DNA from: a virus
Length of the DNA: 64,000 bases
IMG/VR virus record: IMGVR_UViG_3300025121_000027
Span: 43,006-107,005 of that record
Strand: one strand, 5' to 3'
Shown here: positions 41,150-52,957 of the stretch, in pieces
How the letters are laid out: the number at the start of each line of letters is the position of its first letter
Numbering within the stretch: the stretch's first letter is position 1
The notes under the pieces: generated by a model
What the model was told of the DNA's origin: nothing
Databases searched by the model: none
Seen by the model: only the letters and a program-made list of their open reading frames with translations
Program-made: the position numbers and the translations under genes

Positions 41150-41565
41150 GTTTTTTTATTTCCTTTCTTTCTCTTTAGAAAGTCTTGTTTCCAAAAGCAA
41201 TTCTCAAATATTCTAATTATTCTATGCCTTGCTGCTTCCATTTCTAATTCTGTTGTAAATCTACTGTTGGCAAGATACCATAAATCCCCGAATAGAATTT
41301 CAAGTACTTCATGAAAAGCAATCTTCTCTATCTCTGTTTCTTCTGGTGTCGCATTCCAATCCTTTTGTAATGTAATGCAGCAAGTTTTAGACTCCATATC
41401 GCTTGTTGCAAATGCTCTTGCATCTTCTTCTGTTTGGCAATGTTCTATGCATAATTCTATATCAAACATGCCAAATCTCTCTATCCAATATTCTGCTTCT
41501 TTCTTAAATCGCACAAAATCTTGTGCTGTTGTTTTGTAATTATTTTCATAGTTCTTTTCTATCAT
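41146..41565 (-). CDS. Zincin-like hypothetical protein
   Basis: IAFHEVLE (HExxE variant of HExxH). Confidence 0.45.
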   Translation of the reverse strand: MIEKNYENNYKTTAQDFVRFKKEAEYWIERFGMFDIELCIEHCQTEEDARAFATSDMESKTCCITLQKDWNATPEETEIEKIAFHEVLEILFGDLWYLANSRFTTELEMEAARHRIIRIFENCFWKQDFLKRKKGNKKT

Positions 41566-44258
41566 TCGGATATTCCTTTTATTGCTTTTGCTTTTGCTTT
41601 TGCTTCAATCGCTAAATCTTCTTTATCACAGACAAGAGCGGCAGAAGATAACTTTAGCCATACTTCATAATCGGCAGGATACTTTTTAAGATATTCTTTA
41701 TAGTGAACAATTGCTTCGCCGTGTTTTTTTAGATTGCAAAGTAAATCCGCAATTATAGGAAGAAACGAATCAAATTCTTCTGCACCATTCATTGCTTCTA
41801 AAATGGTATCAATTCCGTATATAATTTTAGATGTATCTTCTTTTGTTTCTCCGTCGCATACAAGTACTTGCCCAAGTTCAAATTTATATCTTTTCTTTTC
41901 TGGATATTCTTTAACGAGTTGATTGTAAATAGGAATTGATTTTTCATATTCCTTGATTTGGAAATGTACCGTAGCAAGCCCCCACCTTGCTACTTCGTTT
42001 GTTGGAGATTTATCAACTGCTTTTTCGAGCATCTCTTTTGCTTTTGTGAAGTCTTTTTCTTTTCTACCTATCTCTTGTGCGTCAAACATTAATTGGATAG
42101 ATTCAATTGTATCGCTATTATCTGGAAGTTCTTTTGCTTTTTTAATTGCTTCATTAAATAGGCGATATGCTTTTAATAAAACATCAGTCGCATTTTCATC
42201 TATAAGTTTAAATTTACTTGCTTCAAGCATAGGTCTTGCGAAATTACCAACAGCAAAGTATTGTTCCGCATCTTCTATATTTGGCTCTGGTTCTTTCTGT
42301 TTTGGAATAAGTAAAGATAAATCTCTTGCTTCGGATACTTTTGTTAATTGTTGTAGTGTCTCTTTATAGGATTGCTTCAATTGTTTACAGGCATCAAATG
42401 CCGCTTGCAATATAATTCTATTTCTTTCAATTCTAATTTTAGCATCTTCTAATGAAGTAAGAATATGATCTTGATTACCATCAACTTTCATTGCTGCATG
42501 GTTAATCTTTCTTGTTGCGCCATACAAAGCGAGAATAACAAGAGGCAATCTAACAGCTATATTATGTGCGTTATCACTATAGAGTTTATTGCTTGAAAGA
42601 AGTTTATTGAATTTGTCTGTTTGATCTTTCTTCAATTTTTTTAAAGTTAGTGCTTTCAGTTTTGAATTTGTATCAAGTGCTTTCTTTGCATTTACTTGAC
42701 ATTCGTTCAAAAGAGATATTTCTTTTTCAAGAAGAGGTATTGATTCATCTACAAGTTCTAATGCATTACTACAATTAGAAAGCAATGGTTTAAGTTTATC
42801 TCTTTTATCTTCAATTTTATCTTTACAATATGTTTCCAATGCTCTCTTCAAAGACATTCTTTTTGCGCCTTGAATATTAGCACCACCTTCAGTCGCATTG
42901 ATTACATGAGAATCCATTCCTTTAATGAATCGTTCAAACGAAGTAATGAAAGAAGCAAGGCCAACATTCGTTATAACTTCACCACCAAAATATCCAGCGA
43001 CAGGAATAGGTGGCCCCATAGAAATATCTTGTACTTTGTTCAAATGACAACGTGGGTCTTGCACTTCCCATTTAATATCGCCTTGCTCGCTTCGTTTTAA
43101 AATACCCCTGCTATCTGCTTGTTGGAAATGAGATTGCTCGGAATCATATGCTAAATCTTGGCCGATCATAATCAAAGGAGAACAACCCAAGAGAATACTT
43201 AGGCCGTAGCACATATGAGCAACTGAACCGCCTTGCAAAGTCCATCCTTTATCAGAAAGGATTTTGTGTATTCTATTCTTATGATCTGGATGCATATCTA
43301 TTTGCGGCGAGCAAGCGACAAACATAGGCCCTTGCCATCTTTTAAGTAATGGGGCAAAAGACCTATTCAAAGCAACAAGTGGAATATTGCTTTCCATCAA
43401 TCCTTCATAATGCGTTAGATTGACTTCGCCATAATCAACAGAGCAAATGAAATCTGGATTGATACCATAAGCAAGCAACGGCCTTAATGCTTGTCCTACT
43501 GCAATAATGATTGCATTTTCTTGAGCCTCGATTAACAGATGAAGATTTTTAGAAAGAGAAGGGCCAGTAGAAACAAGAATGGCGGGAAGTCCTTTGTACA
43601 GCCCTTCAAGTTCTCTAACGCCTCTTCTATGGATAACGTATGGCAAATTGCTTATATCGTTATCGGCAATTTGTTTCCCTGCATTAGCAACCGTTCCGAT
43701 ATTGCATCTTGTTTGATTCAGAATAGATAATGCTTCAAAAGAAATTTGCTGATATGCATGATTGTCTATTGTATAACCTTCAATACAAGTTGCCCAATCG
43801 TCAATAACGTACTTCTCATTAATCAACTCCAACATATAAGATAGATCATCGATAGTTGGAGCAATCATCAACTTTTCTTCTTTTATTGCTTTTGAAATAT
43901 CTATTCTTTGTAGAGCCGCTTTCAATAGTCCTGGTTCGGATTCTACTACAATAATAATATGTTTATCTTCTGCTTTGTTTAATGCTTCTTGCAGAAAATA
44001 ACCAAGGCCAATGCCGATAATCATTGTCGCATTGGAACTATTGAAAGAAAAATCTTTTAGTCTTGCATCCGCTTCTTTTTTCCATCCTTCAATTGGATAC
44101 AGAGATTTTCTTTTTGTTCCTTTAACAATTAGAAGATTGTCTGTATTGTCTTCACTCTTGATTAGTTCTACCCATTCTGGAAGATTTGCTTTTTCTATCT
44201 TTTCAATAAACTCTGGAATAAGATGGTGCTTTAATGCTTCGATATTTCTATTGAACAA
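41562..44258 (-). CDS. maf: Maf-family (DUF115/MAF_flag10) nonulosonate glycosyltransferase with C-terminal TPRs
   Basis: GIGLGY, AILVSTGPSLSKN, GINPDF..SVD, GGSVAH, LGC.P..MIGQDLAY, INATEGGA.I.G; TPR-like helices after about aa 720. Confidence 0.85.
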   Translation of the reverse strand: MFNRNIEALKHHLIPEFIEKIEKANLPEWVELIKSEDNTDNLLIVKGTKRKSLYPIEGWKKEADARLKDFSFNSSNATMIIGIGLGYFLQEALNKAEDKHIIIVVESEPGLLKAALQRIDISKAIKEEKLMIAPTIDDLSYMLELINEKYVIDDWATCIEGYTIDNHAYQQISFEALSILNQTRCNIGTVANAGKQIADNDISNLPYVIHRRGVRELEGLYKGLPAILVSTGPSLSKNLHLLIEAQENAIIIAVGQALRPLLAYGINPDFICSVDYGEVNLTHYEGLMESNIPLVALNRSFAPLLKRWQGPMFVACSPQIDMHPDHKNRIHKILSDKGWTLQGGSVAHMCYGLSILLGCSPLIMIGQDLAYDSEQSHFQQADSRGILKRSEQGDIKWEVQDPRCHLNKVQDISMGPPIPVAGYFGGEVITNVGLASFITSFERFIKGMDSHVINATEGGANIQGAKRMSLKRALETYCKDKIEDKRDKLKPLLSNCSNALELVDESIPLLEKEISLLNECQVNAKKALDTNSKLKALTLKKLKKDQTDKFNKLLSSNKLYSDNAHNIAVRLPLVILALYGATRKINHAAMKVDGNQDHILTSLEDAKIRIERNRIILQAAFDACKQLKQSYKETLQQLTKVSEARDLSLLIPKQKEPEPNIEDAEQYFAVGNFARPMLEASKFKLIDENATDVLLKAYRLFNEAIKKAKELPDNSDTIESIQLMFDAQEIGRKEKDFTKAKEMLEKAVDKSPTNEVARWGLATVHFQIKEYEKSIPIYNQLVKEYPEKKRYKFELGQVLVCDGETKEDTSKIIYGIDTILEAMNGAEEFDSFLPIIADLLCNLKKHGEAIVHYKEYLKKYPADYEVWLKLSSAALVCDKEDLAIEAKAKAKAIKGISE

Positions 44259-47410: not shown

Positions 47411-47664
47411 TTTTGCTTTTCTCCTTTTTTGAGTTCTTTTATGGTAGATACCATTTTGCAGAAATCAAATAAGTATTTACGATCATTAAGAACTAAAACA
47501 ACATTAGTTTTCTTTTCTATTGAAAGAATCATACACTCTTCTTCACAAACATTTTGACTGCTTCCAGGAATCGCACTAACTACAATTTCTCTTATATGAA
47601 TTGTATTAAGTTTTCTTTCTTTTCTTTCTGCATACATTTTACCTTCCCTCCTTTTTAAATACAT
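47407..47664 (-). CDS. Hypothetical protein
   Basis: Overlaps both neighbours; GGAGG RBS before MYAERK. Confidence 0.55.
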   Translation of the reverse strand: MYLKRREGKMYAERKERKLNTIHIREIVVSAIPGSSQNVCEEECMILSIEKKTNVVLVLNDRKYLFDFCKMVSTIKELKKGEKQK

Positions 47665-49105
47665 CTTTAAGAGTCAACAAGGGAATCTGCATGATCTCAT
47701 CCACCAAACTATACTTACTTGTTCGCATGGTCTTAATCAAATTGGGAAGTGAATAATAATCTACATTATTCCCAAGCTCAAACTTTTGCAATTGAATATC
47801 TGCACTCTCGCAGTAAGAAGACATTCTATCATTTTCGCCAGGAACATGAAACATATAAACAGTTGGCTCAATACCAATATCTCTTCTATAATCATCATAA
47901 GCATTGTGAAAATAAGGAGAGCGATTATCACCGCCATCAGTACAGACAGCAATTCCGTTTACCACAATTCCTTTTTCTTTAATTAGCTCCAAGCCACAAC
48001 CAATAGAAGTGCTGCCAGTTGCAGTCAATCGTTTTGTATCATTCTTAATTTGCTCCAATGTCTTTCCTGTAACATCAAAATAAATCGGAGTATCATTAAA
48101 AAAAACAAGATGAACATTACCCTTAACTTGTCTTGCAATCAAAGCAGCAACATTTCTTGCAACTTCAATAGAAGTCTGCATAGAGCCAGAGCGATCCCCG
48201 AGCACAAGCCAATCACCATCAATACTACTATTGTCCAACTTATCTTCTTGCGCTTTGTGAAGTTTAGCGGAAAGCTTCTTATCTGTCTTTGCTACCGCTT
48301 CAGCAGCTTTCGTTATCTTCATCGAAGGTGTTTTCTTATCTTTCTGCATCCTTACTATACCATTATCATAAGCAGCTTTCAATGCAGGGTTTTCAAATAC
48401 TCCCATTTTTTGAAGCATGTTTGTATTTGTAATAAGTTCTGCTCCTGTCATGCGTTCAATCAGAGCAAGAATAACATCGGACTTTCCCTTAATACCACCA
48501 AGAGCACCAACAGCAATAAGATATGGTATCTTATGATTAAGAATTGCACCAGCGGCTTCTTGCGCTTTCATGTTTTTTAAATCTTTGACAACTTGAAAAA
48601 CACTATTCTTTGGATATTTCTTTTCAAATAGAATCTCTTGTGCTCGTTTATTTGGCTTGACATGATAGATAGCATAAAGACTTTTCATGGATTCTCTATG
48701 CTGCAATACAGTTCTATCCCACCAACCAATAGACTTTTCTCTTTCTCTGATAAACATTCTAACAGCTTGCTTTAACCAAGTACCGCCACCCTCTTGACAT
48801 AGCGGCAATTCTCTATGGTATCTACAAGCCCTCAAGAAGTCTTTAGGGGAAAGCTTGCAGAGATGAGCGGCGGCATTTTCATATAGTTCATCATCTTTGC
48901 TGCTGCGTAAAGATAGAATAGGAAAAGCCACTTTACTATCTCTTACTTCGCCCTTCAGTTCATTCCACGCAATGATATGTGCAAACAGTTCTGGCTCATG
49001 CTTTACTGCTTTCAAACCGATATCATTGTAAATAGAGAGATTGCCATGACCGACGCGCAGGAGTTGATTCACAATTTGATTTTGCGATGCTGCGATCTTT
49101 TCCAT
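47639..49105 (-). CDS. Divergent Ro60/TROVE-like helical domain plus vWA (MIDAS) protein
   Basis: Start refined to MEKIAAS (488 aa); ~290 aa helical N-domain then vWA with LGDRSGSM, TGSTS and CTDGGDN; flanked by tRNA-like RNAs as Ro60 loci are. Confidence 0.7.
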   Translation of the reverse strand: MEKIAASQNQIVNQLLRVGHGNLSIYNDIGLKAVKHEPELFAHIIAWNELKGEVRDSKVAFPILSLRSSKDDELYENAAAHLCKLSPKDFLRACRYHRELPLCQEGGGTWLKQAVRMFIREREKSIGWWDRTVLQHRESMKSLYAIYHVKPNKRAQEILFEKKYPKNSVFQVVKDLKNMKAQEAAGAILNHKIPYLIAVGALGGIKGKSDVILALIERMTGAELITNTNMLQKMGVFENPALKAAYDNGIVRMQKDKKTPSMKITKAAEAVAKTDKKLSAKLHKAQEDKLDNSSIDGDWLVLGDRSGSMQTSIEVARNVAALIARQVKGNVHLVFFNDTPIYFDVTGKTLEQIKNDTKRLTATGSTSIGCGLELIKEKGIVVNGIAVCTDGGDNRSPYFHNAYDDYRRDIGIEPTVYMFHVPGENDRMSSYCESADIQLQKFELGNNVDYYSLPNLIKTMRTSKYSLVDEIMQIPLLTLKDVFKKEGR

Positions 49106-49317: not shown

Positions 49318-49335
49318 ATAAATTTTTTCTAAAAA

Positions 49336-49378
49336 AATAGGCTTGAGAATCAGAATACTATTGTTTCTCAAGCCTATT
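49336..49378 (-). terminator. 14-bp hairpin followed by a U-tract
   Basis: AATAGGCTTGAGAA / TTCTCAAGCCTATT; A-run at 49331-49337 gives the U-tract on the minus strand. Confidence 0.55.
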
Positions 49379-49644: not shown

Positions 49645-49774
49645 AAAAGGGGAAAGTCGAAAAAGTTTTATACTACTTTTGATACAGGACTTGAACCTGC
49701 TACCGATTGCTTGGAATGCAATTGCTCTACCAAATTGAGCTAATCATGTAAACTTTTAAGCGGTATCCCCTTTT
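49645..49774 (-). ncRNA. Y-RNA-like element E1 carrying a UCC-anticodon tRNA module (49680-49746)
   Basis: Outer stem AAAAGGGGA/UCCCCUUUU, loop UACCGCUU/UCGACUU, inner stem AAAAGUUU/AAACUUUU, ACA, then a cloverleaf with 4-bp acceptor. Confidence 0.8.
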
Positions 49775-49783
49775 GTGTTCAAA

Positions 49784-49925
49784 TTAGCAAGAAGTCGTAT
49801 AAGCTATGTTGATTATACAGATTGATTTAGAGTCAATTGCGTATACCATTCCGCCTTATTCTCCGAAGAAAATAGAAGGAGTCGAACCTTCAAGTATCAT
49901 GTAAGCTTAATGCGGTGCTTGCTAA
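49784..49925 (-). ncRNA. Y-RNA-like element E2 carrying a circularly permuted CUA-anticodon tRNA (49810-49899)
   Basis: Outer stem UUAGCAAG/CUUGCUAA, CACCGCAU/UACGACUU, UAAGCU/AGCUUA, ACA; arm order T arm, UUCG-capped acceptor, D arm, anticodon arm. Confidence 0.82.
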
Positions 49926-49936
49926 ACTTTTTAAAA

Positions 49937-50007
49937 ATGGCGAGAAGTTATATAAGCTCTCTATTGTTTACTCCAGAAACATGTAAGCTTAAGATGATAC
50001 CCGCCAT
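49937..50007 (-). ncRNA. Y-RNA-like element E3, scaffold only
   Basis: AUGGCGGG/CUCGCCAU, UAUCAUCU/UAUAACUU, UAAGCUU/GAGCUUA, ACA, short apical hairpin. Confidence 0.72.
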
Positions 50008-50016
50008 AAGAACTTT

Positions 50017-50150
50017 TAAATCAGTAAGTCGAATAAGCTTTTTACTTTGGTTGCAATTGTTGGATTTGAACCAACTACTTATTCTTTATGAGAGAATCGC
50101 TCTACCAAATTGAGCTAAGTTGCGTGTAGGCTTAATCTGTAACTGATTTA
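50017..50150 (-). ncRNA. Y-RNA-like element E4 carrying a complete CAU-anticodon tRNA with CCA (50048-50124)
   Basis: UAAAUCAGU/ACUGAUUUA, UACAGAU/UUCGACUU, UAAGC/GCUUA, ACA; 77-nt tRNA CGCAACU...AAUUGCA-ACCA. Confidence 0.82.
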
Positions 50151-50161
50151 ATTTTCAAAGA
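50150..50161 (-). promoter_or_regulatory. boxA-like antitermination element
   Basis: UCUUUGAAAAUU between promoter and RNA array; identical copy at 50470-50481. Confidence 0.65.
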
Positions 50162-50180
50162 TCAATTGTTATTCTGAAAT

Positions 50181-50209
50181 ACTATAATAGAAAAGTTTTA
50201 AAAAATAAA
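50181..50209 (-). promoter_or_regulatory. Conserved promoter, copy 2 (drives the ncRNA array)
   Basis: TTTATT-N17-TATAGT. Confidence 0.72.
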
Positions 50210-50226
50210 GAGTAGATAAAATTTTT

Positions 50227-50465
50227 GTTTGCATGGCTGCCAGGATTCGAACCTGGACAACCGATTTGCGTAGCTTCTGCCCTACGCTCGTACGCTGCTG
50301 CGCGAGTAAATCCTCGATTGATCCGCACAGTTCGTCAGCAGATCCTTCTCGGCCAAAGTGCGGTGCGTTTCCGTGGGTTATTCAGCGTCATTTTGGAAGA
50401 TTGTTCATGCAATCTTTTGTCTACCCAAATGTCCTTTCGCCAACTTTCCGCCACAGCCAGCAAAC
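50227..50465 (-). ncRNA. Giant (~239 nt) tRNA-like RNA
   Basis: 12-bp terminal stem GUUUGCUGGCUG/CAGCCA(U)GCAAAC, UGGCGGAA D-arm start, T arm CCAGG-UUCGAAU-CCUGG, several internal hairpins; GC-rich; has its own promoter and boxA. Confidence 0.72.
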
Positions 50466-50469
50466 TATT

Positions 50470-50481
50470 AATTTTCAAAGA
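50470..50481 (-). promoter_or_regulatory. boxA-like antitermination element
   Basis: UCUUUGAAAAUU, identical to 50150-50161. Confidence 0.65.
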
Positions 50482-50505
50482 CCATCTTAAACTTGATTCT
50501 GACTT

Positions 50506-50534
50506 ATTATAATAGAGACTTTTAGAAAAATAAA
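50506..50534 (-). promoter_or_regulatory. Conserved promoter, copy 3
   Basis: TTTATT-N17-TATAAT. Confidence 0.75.
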
Positions 50535-50546
50535 GCCAAGCTAAAA

Positions 50547-51365
50547 TTAATTTCCAGTATAGCTTTTCGGCATAGGTATCTTATCCGAATTTGCCAACTT
50601 AGAACTTGCTTCCTGTATTTGCTTATCACAATCAACAATTTTCTTCATTATATCTTTGGCCTTTTCCGGTACAGAATCAAAAGCAAGCCTTACCAAATCC
50701 ATCCATCGTTTATTATTTTTCCCTCTAATTTCTTCTATCTTATTGATTAATTCTTGATCGCTTTGTTTTTCAGAAGATATGCCAAAAACTTTTTCAAAAG
50801 GATCTATATTTTTCTGTTCTTTCAACAATCCATATTCATAAACATCTACAAATTCACCATTAAGAAACATTGCTTCCTTAAAGATACCCTCTTTTTTAAA
50901 CCCGAGTTTTTCAAATACTTTTTGCATACCGATATTTGTTGCTGCTGTGCCACTCCAGATTCGATTCAATCCAAGTTTTTTAAATCCATGCTCGCATATC
51001 TCTTTAACCGCAAAAGTCGCAACTCCTTTACCATAATAATCTGGTTCACCAATTACAATGGCAATTTCAGCAGACCTATTAATTAGATCAATTCTTTGAA
51101 GTGAAACATTACCGATATGCTTAGGTCCTTTAACTAAGATACTCCAAATTATTCTTGATTCGTCATATTGCAATGTTTCTTTTATGTCTGTATCTGGAGA
51201 GTACGGGAAAAGTCCATGACTGTTTTTTGAAACTACTTCTGGACGATTAAACCAAAACTTATAATCAGAATTAATATTTTTGTTGTCGTATACTTCACAG
51301 AATGGAGCAAGATGAATAGTTCCTGCTTTTTCACTATAGGTTGTTGCTAAGACATTATAATTCAT
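50547..51365 (-). CDS. RimJ/RimL-type GNAT acetyltransferase (PseH-like) with an extra C-terminal helical domain
   Basis: HIGNVSL..ID..NRSAE..I.IGE..Y.GKG.A, N.GM..V.EKLGF.KEG. Confidence 0.8.
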   Translation of the reverse strand: MNYNVLATTYSEKAGTIHLAPFCEVYDNKNINSDYKFWFNRPEVVSKNSHGLFPYSPDTDIKETLQYDESRIIWSILVKGPKHIGNVSLQRIDLINRSAEIAIVIGEPDYYGKGVATFAVKEICEHGFKKLGLNRIWSGTAATNIGMQKVFEKLGFKKEGIFKEAMFLNGEFVDVYEYGLLKEQKNIDPFEKVFGISSEKQSDQELINKIEEIRGKNNKRWMDLVRLAFDSVPEKAKDIMKKIVDCDKQIQEASSKLANSDKIPMPKSYTGN

Positions 51366-51733
51366 TAACCATTCTCCTTTAACATCTCTTCTATTTTATT
51401 CCAATATAAATGTTCAACTGGTATTCCAAATTCATCCGCATTTACTTTTTCAATATGAATACCAAATGATTCTGTCCAGCCAGGAGCGCAAACAATAATC
51501 ATCTTATCCGCCCACTCTACAAGGATTGGCAAATCTTGAGCAAGCCAAAAGTTATGATCTAAATGACTGACTCCTTTTAATACTTTTGAAATCGGGTGGC
51601 TGTGAGATAAAGGAGAAAATACTACATGACCCGCTTTCATTAAAATGCCAGCAATCTTATCTGCTATATCAACGCGATATTCACAAACAGAATAATCCTT
51701 ATGAGAATAAGGGCAAGCCAAATAGATTTTCAT
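51365..51733 (-). CDS. Nucleoside 2-deoxyribosyltransferase-like protein (DUF1937-like)
   Basis: KIYLACPYSH, VFSPLSHSH, GW.ES.G...E. Confidence 0.8.
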   Translation of the reverse strand: MKIYLACPYSHKDYSVCEYRVDIADKIAGILMKAGHVVFSPLSHSHPISKVLKGVSHLDHNFWLAQDLPILVEWADKMIIVCAPGWTESFGIHIEKVNADEFGIPVEHLYWNKIEEMLKENG

Positions 51734-51735
51734 TT

Positions 51736-51996
51736 TTAAATCCTTTTCAGTTTAATTGCTTCATGTTTGTTTAGTTTGTCAATAAATACATCTACCATAT
51801 CTGGATGGCATACAACCAAATTAGCGCTTACAAAATAATAAAATTCAGAAGATGGAACTTGTTTAGTATATTTCTTTCTATACTTCTTAATCCATCTTGC
51901 ATTACTTTTCTTTTTAGGATGTTTAGTTTGAATAACTTCTAAAAGATTATTGTTTGTTTTTATTCTTATATTTGTTGGAAGAGGGTTAATCACCAT
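51736..51996 (-). CDS. Hypothetical basic protein
   Basis: ORF track; packed between neighbours. Confidence 0.55.
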   Translation of the reverse strand: MVINPLPTNIRIKTNNNLLEVIQTKHPKKKSNARWIKKYRKKYTKQVPSSEFYYFVSANLVVCHPDMVDVFIDKLNKHEAIKLKRI

Positions 51997-52957
51997 TTAA
52001 CAATCCTTTAATTACTTCAATATTGTCTGTATACAAAGGATTTCTATCGTCGCTGTATAGGCAATCCTTTAAAGAAGTTATCCACAAAGAAATTCCTTGC
52101 GGCGCTATAATATACTTATCTTCTTTCTCATTTGTTCTGAATATCTCTTCTTGATTGATTAACATTTCATGCGCTTTTTCCCCAGGTCTTCTTCCTACAA
52201 TTTTCCAATTACTTTCATCTGTTCCTGTCGTCGCTTTTATAAATACTTCTAACGAACAAGAAATCATCTTTGGAATATAAGTATACCCAGGCATACAGCT
52301 ATCAAGACAATCTAAAACAAACTTTGCAACTTTAGGAAGCGGAATCCAAAAGCGAGTCATTTCAGGATCAGTAATTGGTATTTTCTTTCCTTTATCAAGA
52401 AGTTTAATCATGTCTAAAATACTACCTCTTGAACCAATTACATTTCCATATCTAACAACAGCAAAATTAGTTCCCCACCCACCGCTATAAATGCTACCTC
52501 TTGACCATAATTTTTCAGCGCACATTTTGCTTGCGCCATATAGATTGATACTCTCCACCGCCTTATCGGTGCTAATAAACATTGCGCTTTTTACATTGGC
52601 AGCAATGCAAGCCATCATAACATTTTCTGTCCCATATACATTTGTCTTGATATATTCTAATGGATTATCTTCTGCTATCGGTACATGTTTCAATGCAGCA
52701 GTATGAATAACATGAGTAACACCTTTCAATGCTTCCGCTAATCTTCGATAGTCTCTAACGTCTCCTATAATAAAAGCAATAGGAGGCATGTCTTTTCCTT
52801 CTAATTGTTTCTTTAAATTATACTGCTTTAATTCGTCCCTACTATAAATCCGTATCCCTTTAATGTTTTTATTTCCTTCAAGTTGATTGAGAATTGCTTT
52901 TCCTAATGAACCAGTACCACCAGTTATTAGATATTCGCGTTTATATTCTATTTTCAT
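51986..52957 (-). CDS. pseB: UDP-N-acetylglucosamine 4,6-dehydratase (PseB/FlaA1-like)
   Basis: ITGGTGSLG, YSRDELKQ, HTAALKHVP, STDKA...NLYGASK, RYGNV.GSRGS, ITDPEMTRFW, RPGEK.HE. Confidence 0.9.
   Translation of the reverse strand: MKIEYKREYLITGGTGSLGKAILNQLEGNKNIKGIRIYSRDELKQYNLKKQLEGKDMPPIAFIIGDVRDYRRLAEALKGVTHVIHTAALKHVPIAEDNPLEYIKTNVYGTENVMMACIAANVKSAMFISTDKAVESINLYGASKMCAEKLWSRGSIYSGGWGTNFAVVRYGNVIGSRGSILDMIKLLDKGKKIPITDPEMTRFWIPLPKVAKFVLDCLDSCMPGYTYIPKMISCSLEVFIKATTGTDESNWKIVGRRPGEKAHEMLINQEEIFRTNEKEDKYIIAPQGISLWITSLKDCLYSDDRNPLYTDNIEVIKGLLNGD

What the first reader, a model, noticed from the sequence alone, without database searches (positions are those of the whole stretch)
49784..49925. 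Circularly permuted tRNA with a UUCG-sealed acceptor stem and amber (CUA) anticodon, attached through its variable arm
Seen, 5' to 3' on the minus strand: T arm GAAGG-UUCGACU-CCUUC, 7-bp acceptor UAUUUUC-UUCG-GAGAAUA closed by a C(UUCG)G tetraloop, D arm GCG-GAAUGGUAUA-CGC (Leu-like), anticodon arm AUUGA-CUCUAAA-UCAAU. The scaffold joins where a class II variable arm would be. It cannot be aminoacylated without cleavage, yet it keeps a perfect anticodon arm whose loop reads CUA, the same loop sequence as tRNA-Pyl. YrlA RNAs are also permuted, but their stem replaces the anticodon arm, so this topology differs. Inference: a non-chargeable tRNA mimic acting as a decoy or a ribosome/synthetase ligand.
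Basis: partly seen in the sequence, partly recalled or inferred. Interest (0 to 1): 0.88.

Follow-up and report, generated by a model that had tools for sequence, protein, structure and literature searches.

The report
Permuted whole-tRNA head on phage Y-RNA
This is a real, conserved small phage RNA in which a complete tRNA body (all four arms) is circularly permuted, sealed at its acceptor end and carried on a double-helical handle next to a hidden Ro60 gene. It is a new variant of the known Ro60/Y-RNA tRNA mimics, not an amber-suppressor tRNA.

Summary
The order is T arm, 7-bp acceptor sealed by a C(UUCG)G tetraloop, D arm, then anticodon arm with loop CUCUAAA, with both RNA ends leaving as a two-tier stem between the anticodon stem and position 48.

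About 20 homologues in uncultured phages keep all four arms. 97.5% of cells are paired, 17 of 20 pairs show double compensatory changes, and the tertiary 15-48 pair covaries. Un-permuted in silico, 16 of 16 are called as tRNAs by ARAGORN.

The adjacent 488-aa gene is a Ro60 that Pfam misses; its 13 best PDB fold hits are all Ro60. The element is one of four tandem RNAs sharing the same handle. I read it as a Y-RNA-type partner of phage Ro60 with a non-chargeable whole-tRNA mimic as its head.

It differs from known YrlA RNAs in keeping a full anticodon stem-loop and attaching through the variable-arm position.

The amber reading is not supported. CUA occurs only in this phage, homologues carry at least ten other anticodons, and TAG is an ordinary stop here. 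The loop framework (C32, U33, R37, A38) is nevertheless conserved, which is unexplained. A sister subtype encodes N-CC(A) where this one has UUCG.

Earlier notes of this scan had flagged the same array and the Ro60 link; I re-tested both.

The parts
49918..49925 (-). handle, outer stem 5' strand (pairs with 49784-49791)
   Evidence: Direct reading; folds. In homologues the outer stem sequence differs completely but still pairs.
49910..49917 (-). handle, 5' internal loop (8 nt; most homologues have a 3-nt UAC bulge here)
49904..49909 (-). handle, inner stem 5' strand (pairs with 49800-49805)
49896..49903 (-). conserved junction motif UACAUG, plus the 5' strand of a 4-bp mini-helix (49899-49896 pairs with 49813-49810) at the base of the head
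   Evidence: The motif recurs in window units B, C and D and in homologues.
49875..49891 (-). T arm (5 bp, loop UUCGACU). The U at 49892 acts as position 48.
49857..49874 (-). acceptor stem, 7 bp, sealed by a C(UUCG)G tetraloop; no discriminator or CCA
49839..49854 (-). D arm (3-bp stem, class-II-like; A14, G18, G19, A21 present)
49821..49837 (-). anticodon arm (5 bp, 7-nt loop with anticodon CUA)
49792..49799 (-). handle, 3' internal loop containing the conserved (C)GACUY motif
49784..49791 (-). handle, outer stem 3' strand
47639..49105 (-). 488-aa divergent Ro60 (helical ring plus vWA with DxSxS), the presumed protein partner
   Evidence: Pfam gives only a weak VWA hit; the TROVE model gives no hit; family profile versus PDB has Ro60 as best hit, E = 0.02; AF2 pLDDT 85; Foldseek's top 13 hits are all Ro60, TM 0.58-0.66.
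50018..50149 (-). sibling unit A: same handle carrying a near-complete tRNA in normal order (CAU, C1:A72, encoded ACCA)
49937..50007 (-). sibling unit B: same handle with a small hairpin head
49646..49773 (-). sibling unit D: same handle carrying a tRNA-like head in normal order (UCC, acceptor only 4 bp)
49330..49378 (-). intrinsic terminator (14-bp stem plus U7) ending the RNA array after tRNA-Pro
   Evidence: z = -5.0
50148..50223 (-). promoter-like block upstream of unit A, duplicated at 50468-50548 (inferred promoter)
   Evidence: repeat families D3 and D8; direct reading

Best explanation
The element is one of four tandem Y-RNA-type small RNAs made by this phage for its own divergent Ro60 protein. 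The two-tier handle (outer stem, asymmetric internal loop with a conserved GACUY on the 3' side, inner stem, UACAUG junction) is the shared module and is inferred to dock on Ro60. The head is a complete tRNA body folded into the L shape, circularly permuted so that the acceptor end is sealed by an ultra-stable UUCG tetraloop and the RNA ends leave where a class II variable arm would be. As encoded it cannot be aminoacylated. It presents a tRNA elbow and a canonical anticodon loop to tRNA-binding factors while tethered to Ro60, as proposed for the tRNA-like module of YrlA. Shown here: the structure and its conservation, the Ro60 fold of the neighbouring gene, the recurrence of the pairing, and the absence of amber recoding. 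Inferred: Ro60 binding through the handle, the tether or mimic role, and transcription of the array as one unit.
For: All four arms covary, as does the tertiary 15-48 pair (A-U 12 times, G-C 3 times); A14, G18, A21 and the T loop are invariant and G19 is present in 15 of 16. 16 of 16 heads become ARAGORN tRNAs when un-permuted and 0 of 16 in native order. The neighbouring gene has a Ro60 fold. The same head lies beside homologues of that gene in 10 of about 33 viral loci and 7 of about 15 metagenome loci. Units found by DNA pattern alone also sit near Ro60-fold genes: L002/L003 about 4 kb from a protein matching the family profile at 2e-14; L090 75 nt from a distant relative (hhalign 3e-4); L100 424 nt from a DUF2828/DUF7788 protein whose model's top 12 PDB hits are all Ro60. 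Four window units share the handle while their outer stems differ but still pair. Known precedent: Y-like RNAs lie upstream of phage and bacterial Ro60, and YrlA is a permuted tRNA mimic with a closed acceptor (PMC4201824; bioRxiv 10.1101/312249; PMC12135203). The Rfam YrlA consensus has the same module order and an ACUU-containing 3' loop at the same place.
Against: There is no binding or expression data. The Rfam YrlA model does not hit the element, and the proposed Ro-binding motif GNCGAAN0-1G is absent from the 5' strand. One complete phage genome (G005, unit in L145) has a four-arm permuted unit but no TROVE, A1-family or DUF7788 gene detectable. A simple tether model does not explain why the anticodon-loop framework is conserved in about 15 of 23 members. 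A strong terminator lies between the RNA array and the Ro60 gene, so co-expression is not guaranteed.
Confidence: 0.6

Rival explanations
1. It is a decoy or substrate mimic for tRNA-targeting enzymes. The head, held on Ro60, offers a canonical anticodon loop to host anticodon nucleases or other tRNA-directed defence or modification enzymes. The free variation of the anticodon between phages reflects different targets. This refines the mimic model rather than excluding it.
For: The loop framework (C32, U33, R37, A38) is kept while the triplet varies among at least ten anticodons. The Ro60-like gene sits inside phage tRNA arrays in most loci. Bacterial Ro60/YrlA lie in the RtcB repair operon that responds to damaged tRNA (PMC7790460, listed, not read in detail).
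Against: No nuclease, ligase or repair enzyme is linked here: no RtcB or CCA-adding enzyme in the phage. Nothing ties CUA to a known nuclease target. Sibling heads without anticodon arms exist (unit B).
Confidence: 0.17
2. It is a permuted tRNA gene that yields a working two-piece amber suppressor. RNase P cuts 5' of G1 inside the sealed acceptor, the 3' side is trimmed and CCA is added, as happens to M. smegmatis YrlA. The two halves, held together by the handle, are then charged and read UAG.
For: The acceptor has 7 bp, the length that makes M. smegmatis YrlA an RNase P substrate with CCA addition in vivo (PMC4201824). A sister subtype of this family encodes N-CC(A) plus a short spacer right after the acceptor 3' strand in 8 of 9 long-loop members, and the ninth has CCA directly. 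The anticodon loop is canonical.
Against: The window copy has a C(UUCG)G seal with no discriminator or CC, and A instead of U at position 8. CUA is unique to this phage. TAG is a normal stop in 17 of 124 genes, and reading it as sense gains nothing. Suppression would extend those proteins.
Confidence: 0.08
3. It is only a processing or regulatory scaffold in a polycistronic tRNA and Ro60 transcript, for example a Ro60 autoregulatory site or an RNase entry site, with no trans-acting role for the head.
For: It has the same orientation as, and lies upstream of, the Ro60 gene. It sits among real tRNA genes.
Against: A strong terminator separates the array from the Ro60 gene. In L011 the array lies downstream of the gene. 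Selection on every tRNA tertiary contact is not expected for a mere processing site.
Confidence: 0.08
4. It is a decaying or rearranged tRNA pseudogene, or a chance arrangement.
For: Phage tRNA clusters do contain degenerate copies. ARAGORN and Rfam do not call it.
Against: There are compensatory changes in 17 of 20 pairs across about 20 divergent phages, and shuffled and slid controls fail.
Confidence: 0.02

Closest known systems
YrlA (Y RNA-like A, Rfam RF02553) of bacteria and some phages
   Same: It is encoded next to Ro60. A terminal stem with an internal loop carries a tRNA-like module in the order T arm, closed acceptor hairpin, D arm. It has the same tertiary-contact nucleotides and the Levitt pair, and has been described as resembling a circularly permuted tRNA (bioRxiv 10.1101/312249). 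The 3' internal loop contains ACUU at the same place.
   Different: YrlA has no anticodon loop, and its Ro-binding stem continues from the anticodon stem. Here a full anticodon stem-loop is present and the stem leaves between it and position 48. The GNCGAAN0-1G motif is absent, the Rfam model does not score the element, and the partner Ro60 belongs to a clade that Pfam TROVE misses.
M. smegmatis YrlA
   Same: It has a 7-bp closed acceptor stem. That RNA is cut by RNase P and receives CCA in vivo (PMC4201824).
   Different: The window copy is capped by UUCG with no encoded C after the stem. Whether it is cut is unknown.
D. radiodurans Yrn1
   Same: It is a Ro60-bound Y RNA with T-like and D-like elements and a possible anticodon-like hairpin, with the handle at the acceptor position. 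This resembles sibling units A and D of the window.
   Different: It has normal rather than permuted order, a 6-nt loop and no clear D arm (PMC4201824).
Thermus phage phiLo Yrl1/Yrl2 with phage Ro60
   Same: Two Y-like RNAs lie just upstream of a phage Ro60. They are shown to bind it, and to bind host PNPase (PMC12135203). The phiLo Ro60 structure is among the best fold matches of the window's protein.
   Different: The paper never uses the terms 'tRNA-like', 'YrlA' or 'anticodon' for Yrl1/Yrl2 (0 occurrences in a term search of its text). They carry a CGAA motif in a large bulge.
Circularly permuted tRNA genes of Cyanidioschyzon merolae and some algae and archaea
   Same: The 3' half (T arm and acceptor 3' strand) is encoded upstream of the 5' half.
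   Different: Those are matured into ordinary tRNAs through a circular intermediate made by the splicing endonuclease and ligase (my own knowledge). Here the junction is a long stem at the variable region, the acceptor is sealed by a tetraloop, and the host is bacterial.

Membership tests
YrlA (Rfam RF02553) | Scores at or above the family's gathering threshold (69 bits) | tested here: not met
   There is no YrlA hit on 49784-49925 even at E <= 10. Neighbouring units score 15-21 bits.
YrlA (Rfam RF02553) | Module order: stem, T arm, closed acceptor hairpin, D arm, stem | tested here: met
   Model consensus compared.
YrlA (Rfam RF02553) | Ro-binding stem continues from the anticodon stem; no anticodon loop | tested here: not met
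   A full covarying anticodon arm is present. The handle leaves between it and position 48, which covaries with position 15.
YrlA (Rfam RF02553) | GNCGAAN0-1G motif near the 5' end (PMC4201824) | tested here: not met
   The 5' strands carry a UAC-type bulge instead. A CGA-containing motif, (C)GACUY, sits on the 3' strand.
Y RNA (functional class) | Encoded adjacent to a Ro60 orthologue | tested here: met
   The Ro60-fold gene is at 49105-47639. The pairing recurs in more than 20 loci and with three Ro60-fold clades.
Y RNA (functional class) | Bound by Ro60 through the terminal bulged stem | not testable with these tools
   Needs RNP immunoprecipitation or EMSA.
Functional tRNA (RF00005) | Four covarying arms with tRNA tertiary nucleotides | tested here: met
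   ARAGORN of 16 after un-permuting.
Functional tRNA (RF00005) | Free acceptor ends with discriminator and CCA (encoded or addable) | tested here: not met
   The acceptor is sealed by UUCG directly on the G1-C72 pair. Not detected in native order.
Functional tRNA (RF00005) | U8 | tested here: not met
   The window has A8; 12 of 16 homologues have U8.
Amber suppressor or tRNA-Pyl | CUA anticodon conserved and matched by in-frame TAG use | tested here: not met
   CUA occurs only in the window copy. TAG is an ordinary stop. ARAGORN's 'Pyl' label follows the anticodon only.
Permuted tRNA genes (C. merolae type) | Bulge-helix-bulge junction processed by the splicing endonuclease into a circular intermediate | not tested
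   The junction here is a long two-tier stem. I made no BHB search. Bacteria lack that endonuclease (my own knowledge).
Ro60/TROVE (protein next door) | Pfam TROVE (PF05731) match | tested here: not met
Ro60/TROVE (protein next door) | Helical-repeat ring plus C-terminal vWA with MIDAS, full-length fold match to Ro60 | tested here: met
   Foldseek's top 13 hits are Ro60, E 1e-11 to 2e-7, over about 500 aligned columns. D304, S306 and S308 are invariant.

The most novel reading that the evidence does not exclude
The family is a set of Ro60-docked two-piece tRNAs. The closed acceptor is opened by RNase P and repaired to CCA, as in M. smegmatis YrlA and as the N-CC(A)-encoding sister subtype suggests. 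This would give chargeable tRNAs whose variable arm is the Ro60 handle. The window copy would then deliver an amino acid at UAG, or enter the ribosome as a Ro60-tethered probe. It would be the first case of a permuted, protein-tethered decoding tRNA in a virus.
Probability: 0.08. Interest if true: 0.92.

Novelty: new variant of a known kind. Interest (0 to 1): 0.62.

Why it matters
Y RNAs with tRNA-like modules are known, but what the tRNA mimic is for is still an open question.

This family shows three new things:
- The mimic can be a whole tRNA including a canonical anticodon loop.
- The same handle can be joined to a tRNA body at the acceptor, as an open variable arm, or (in L003) as a closed variable arm.
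- A sealed subtype and an N-CC(A)-bearing subtype coexist.

That gives concrete, testable handles on the function of the tRNA module: elbow versus anticodon loop versus acceptor end. It also gives direct sequence evidence bearing on the model that YrlA arose from tandem tRNA transcripts.

The work also uncovers a large, unannotated phage clade of Ro60 proteins (at least 755 sequences) embedded in phage tRNA arrays, and indicates that DUF2828/DUF7788 proteins are Ro60-fold proteins with the same kind of RNA neighbour.

Tried and rejected
- **Amber recoding:** rejected. TAG ends 17 of 124 genes, and coverage and ORF length do not improve with TAG as sense.
- **Known RNA family:** Rfam at gathering and at E <= 10 gives only a 26-bit half-tRNA hit on the element and no YrlA, tmRNA, GOLLD or ROOL hit.
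- **BLAST of the cluster against GenBank phages:** found only ordinary tRNAs. Only one uncultured 595-kb phage record carries the protein, at 30% identity.
- **Pfam TROVE and single-sequence PDB search of the protein:** nothing. Profile and fold searches were needed.
- **RtcB and CCA-adding enzyme in the phage:** absent.
- **MAFFT alignment of whole units including handles:** failed with three sequences. I used core alignment plus separate handle folding instead.
- **Covariance model alone:** does not separate permuted units from abutting ordinary tRNAs. False positives reach about 48 bits in Ro60-anchored loci and about 67 bits in pattern-selected loci. I therefore required a pairing acceptor hairpin and no overlapping ARAGORN tRNA. 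L031 and L038:7872 were rejected this way.
- **Two Y RNA reviews (PMC10870794, PMC6047535):** not held.
- **My handle descriptor:** loose (51 hits in one shuffled pass). Only units with long perfect stems next to the gene were used.

Full report
**1. What is there**

The window is the last 64 kb of a complete 107,005-bp virus record with terminal repeats. On the minus strand between about 50,150 and 49,240 lies a cluster that ARAGORN and Rfam read as tRNA-Met, a truncated tRNA, tRNA-Pro and tRNA-Arg.

The finding's stretch, 49925-49784, is not called by either tool. The spacers are of tRNA length (2 nt, 1 nt).

The flanks form a 4-bp mini-helix, a 6-bp inner stem and an 8-bp outer stem separated by internal loops. 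Rfam's tRNA model gives 26 bits to the 5' half alone.

**2. It is conserved, not chance**

A DNA pattern for "T loop, short hairpin with UUCG, D arm" found the same arrangement in two jumbo-phage contigs with different stem sequences. There the MFE fold gives all four arms on a two-tier stem.

Homologues of the neighbouring protein brought in 35 viral and 28 metagenome loci. A descriptor scan and then a covariance model found the permuted head in 10 of about 33 distinct viral loci and 7 of about 15 usable metagenome loci.

The structure was tested on a MAFFT alignment made without structural information (A3, 16 cores):
- 97.5% of cells pair, against 64% in shuffles and 30-44% with slid partners.
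- 17 of 20 pairs change on both sides.
- Every arm is supported.

The base just 5' of the T stem covaries with D-loop position 15: A-U 12 times, G-C 3 times, one exception. A14, G18, A21 and the T loop are invariant, and G19 is present in 15 of 16. This argues for a true L-shaped fold, with the handle leaving between the anticodon stem and position 48.

Rejoining the halves in silico makes ARAGORN of 16 as tRNAs, against 0 of 16 in native order.

**3. The neighbouring gene is a hidden Ro60**

A note from an earlier agent of this scan on the adjacent unit proposed a Ro60 link. I tested it.
- The 488-aa product of 49105-47639 has only a sub-threshold VWA hit in Pfam and no TROVE hit.
- It has at least 755 unannotated relatives.
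- A family profile has Ro60 as its best PDB hit, weakly but in two collinear pieces.
- The AlphaFold model (pLDDT 85) matches full-length Ro60 structures in its 13 best Foldseek hits, with TM 0.58-0.66 over about 500 columns. These include D. radiodurans Rsr and the Ro60 of Thermus phage phiLo.
- The clade is essentially phage-only: one small MAG contig among 185,579 species genomes.

**4. The element is one of four handle-bearing RNAs**

Units A (50149-50018), B (50007-49937), C (this finding) and D (49773-49646) share one architecture:
- an outer stem whose sequence differs between units but pairs;
- an internal loop with (C)GACUY on the 3' side;
- an inner stem;
- a UACAUG junction.

Their heads differ. 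Unit A carries a near-complete tRNA in normal order with an encoded ACCA. Unit B carries a hairpin. Unit C carries the permuted tRNA. Unit D carries a tRNA-like body with a 4-bp acceptor.

A duplicated promoter-like block precedes the array, and a strong terminator follows tRNA-Pro. Tandem arrays of 2-5 such units flank the Ro60-like gene in most other loci. The handle descriptor itself is loose, so I used only units with long perfect stems.

**5. Is the Ro60 link general?**

A pattern scan that did not use the protein returned mostly abutting ordinary tRNAs. It also returned 12 closed-acceptor units outside called tRNAs, three of them with canonical anticodon arms (L090, L100, L145). Their records have no TROVE or A1-family gene by profile search. 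On closer inspection:
- The L100 unit lies 424 nt downstream of a DUF2828/DUF7788 protein. Its model's top 12 PDB hits are all full-length Ro60.
- The L090 unit lies 75 nt downstream of a 610-aa protein that aligns with the window's family beyond the vWA domain (hhalign E = 3e-4).
- L002 and L003 lie about 4 kb from a protein matching the family profile at 2e-14.
- Only L145, in a genome rated complete, has no detectable Ro60-fold gene.

So four of the five lineages found independently of the protein are next to a Ro60-fold gene.

**6. The anticodon**

CUA is unique to the window. Other members have CAU, UGA (five times), UCA, UGU, UAA, CAG, UAU, GAA, GGU and several non-canonical loops. The phage uses TAG as a normal stop. 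The amber and Pyl reading therefore has no support.

What is conserved is the loop framework: C32, U33, purine 37 and A38 in about 15 of 23 members, while all five stem pairs have turned over. A simple tether model does not explain this. It suggests that something reads the shape of the anticodon loop.

**7. Two cap subtypes**

Eleven members are not of the N-CC(A) type. Ten are capped by a tetraloop: UUCG seven times, GUGA, GCAA and UCUA. L039 has a 9-nt loop without CC.

In nine others the acceptor 3' strand is followed by N-CC(A) and a spacer of a few to about 70 nt. Eight of the nine have N-CC and one has CCA directly.

This is the junction expected if the head arose from a tandem tRNA dimer, the origin model quoted in bioRxiv 10.1101/312249. 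It also recalls M. smegmatis YrlA, which is cut by RNase P and given CCA in vivo. The window copy belongs to the sealed subtype and also has A8, so I rate processing into a chargeable form as unlikely here but not excluded.

**8. Comparison with what is known**

YrlA is described as resembling a circularly permuted tRNA with a closed acceptor and as lacking the anticodon loop. Phage Ro60 genes with upstream Y-like RNAs are documented.

The present element works like a YrlA but fails three of its defining tests: the Rfam score, the 5' motif, and stem exit at the anticodon stem. I found no description of this topology in the held literature. Two reviews could not be read.

**9. Verdict**

- The best explanation is a Ro60-associated Y-type RNA with a sealed whole-tRNA head (confidence 0.6).
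- It is a new variant of a known kind.

Noticed in passing
window 50227-50465 (minus strand): A GC-rich RNA candidate of about 240 nt lies between the two promoter-like repeats. It is closed by a long terminal stem with a perfect T arm next to the 3' strand, has no CCA, and is not called by ARAGORN or Rfam. Fold z = -2.8.
   Followed up: partly
window 50018-50149 (minus strand): The ARAGORN 'tRNA-Met' has a C1:A72 mismatch, a second acceptor mismatch and an encoded ACCA. Its leader and trailer pair into the same handle as the other units, so it may be a caged tRNA rather than a free one.
   Followed up: partly
L003 4907-5039: This is a tRNA-like RNA with an open 7-bp acceptor. Its long variable arm is a closed copy of the handle, with the same junction motif before the T arm. 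It is the un-permuted counterpart of the permuted unit 30 nt upstream, so one locus holds three ways of joining the same two modules.
   Followed up: partly
L194 580-2211 (G004), and G006, G008, G009: DUF2828 plus DUF7788 proteins (472-548 aa) model as Ro60-like, with the top 12 PDB fold hits all Ro60. In L100 one lies 424 nt upstream of a permuted four-arm unit. This family appears to be an unrecognised Ro60-fold clade.
   Followed up: partly
L083, L105, L117, L119, L139: A related phage RNA type has a T arm, closed acceptor and D arm but no anticodon arm (YrlA-like). It sits on a stem with a UUACAGCA junction motif, and DUF7788 genes occur elsewhere in the same records.
   Followed up: partly
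L145 3586-3657 (G005, rated 100% complete): A four-arm permuted unit sits inside a 17-tRNA array in a genome where no TROVE, A1-family or DUF7788 gene was found.
   Followed up: partly
window 50547-52957 and 41562-44258 (minus strand): The genes just upstream of the RNA array include a GNAT acetyltransferase, a DUF1937 protein and a PseB-like polysaccharide dehydratase, which looks like a sugar-modification set in a phage.
   Followed up: no
L011 5948-6023, L017 6952-7037, L040 2474-2548: ARAGORN calls tRNAs with anticodon UUA (reading the UAA stop) in several related loci. The one in L011 sits on a handle.
   Followed up: no
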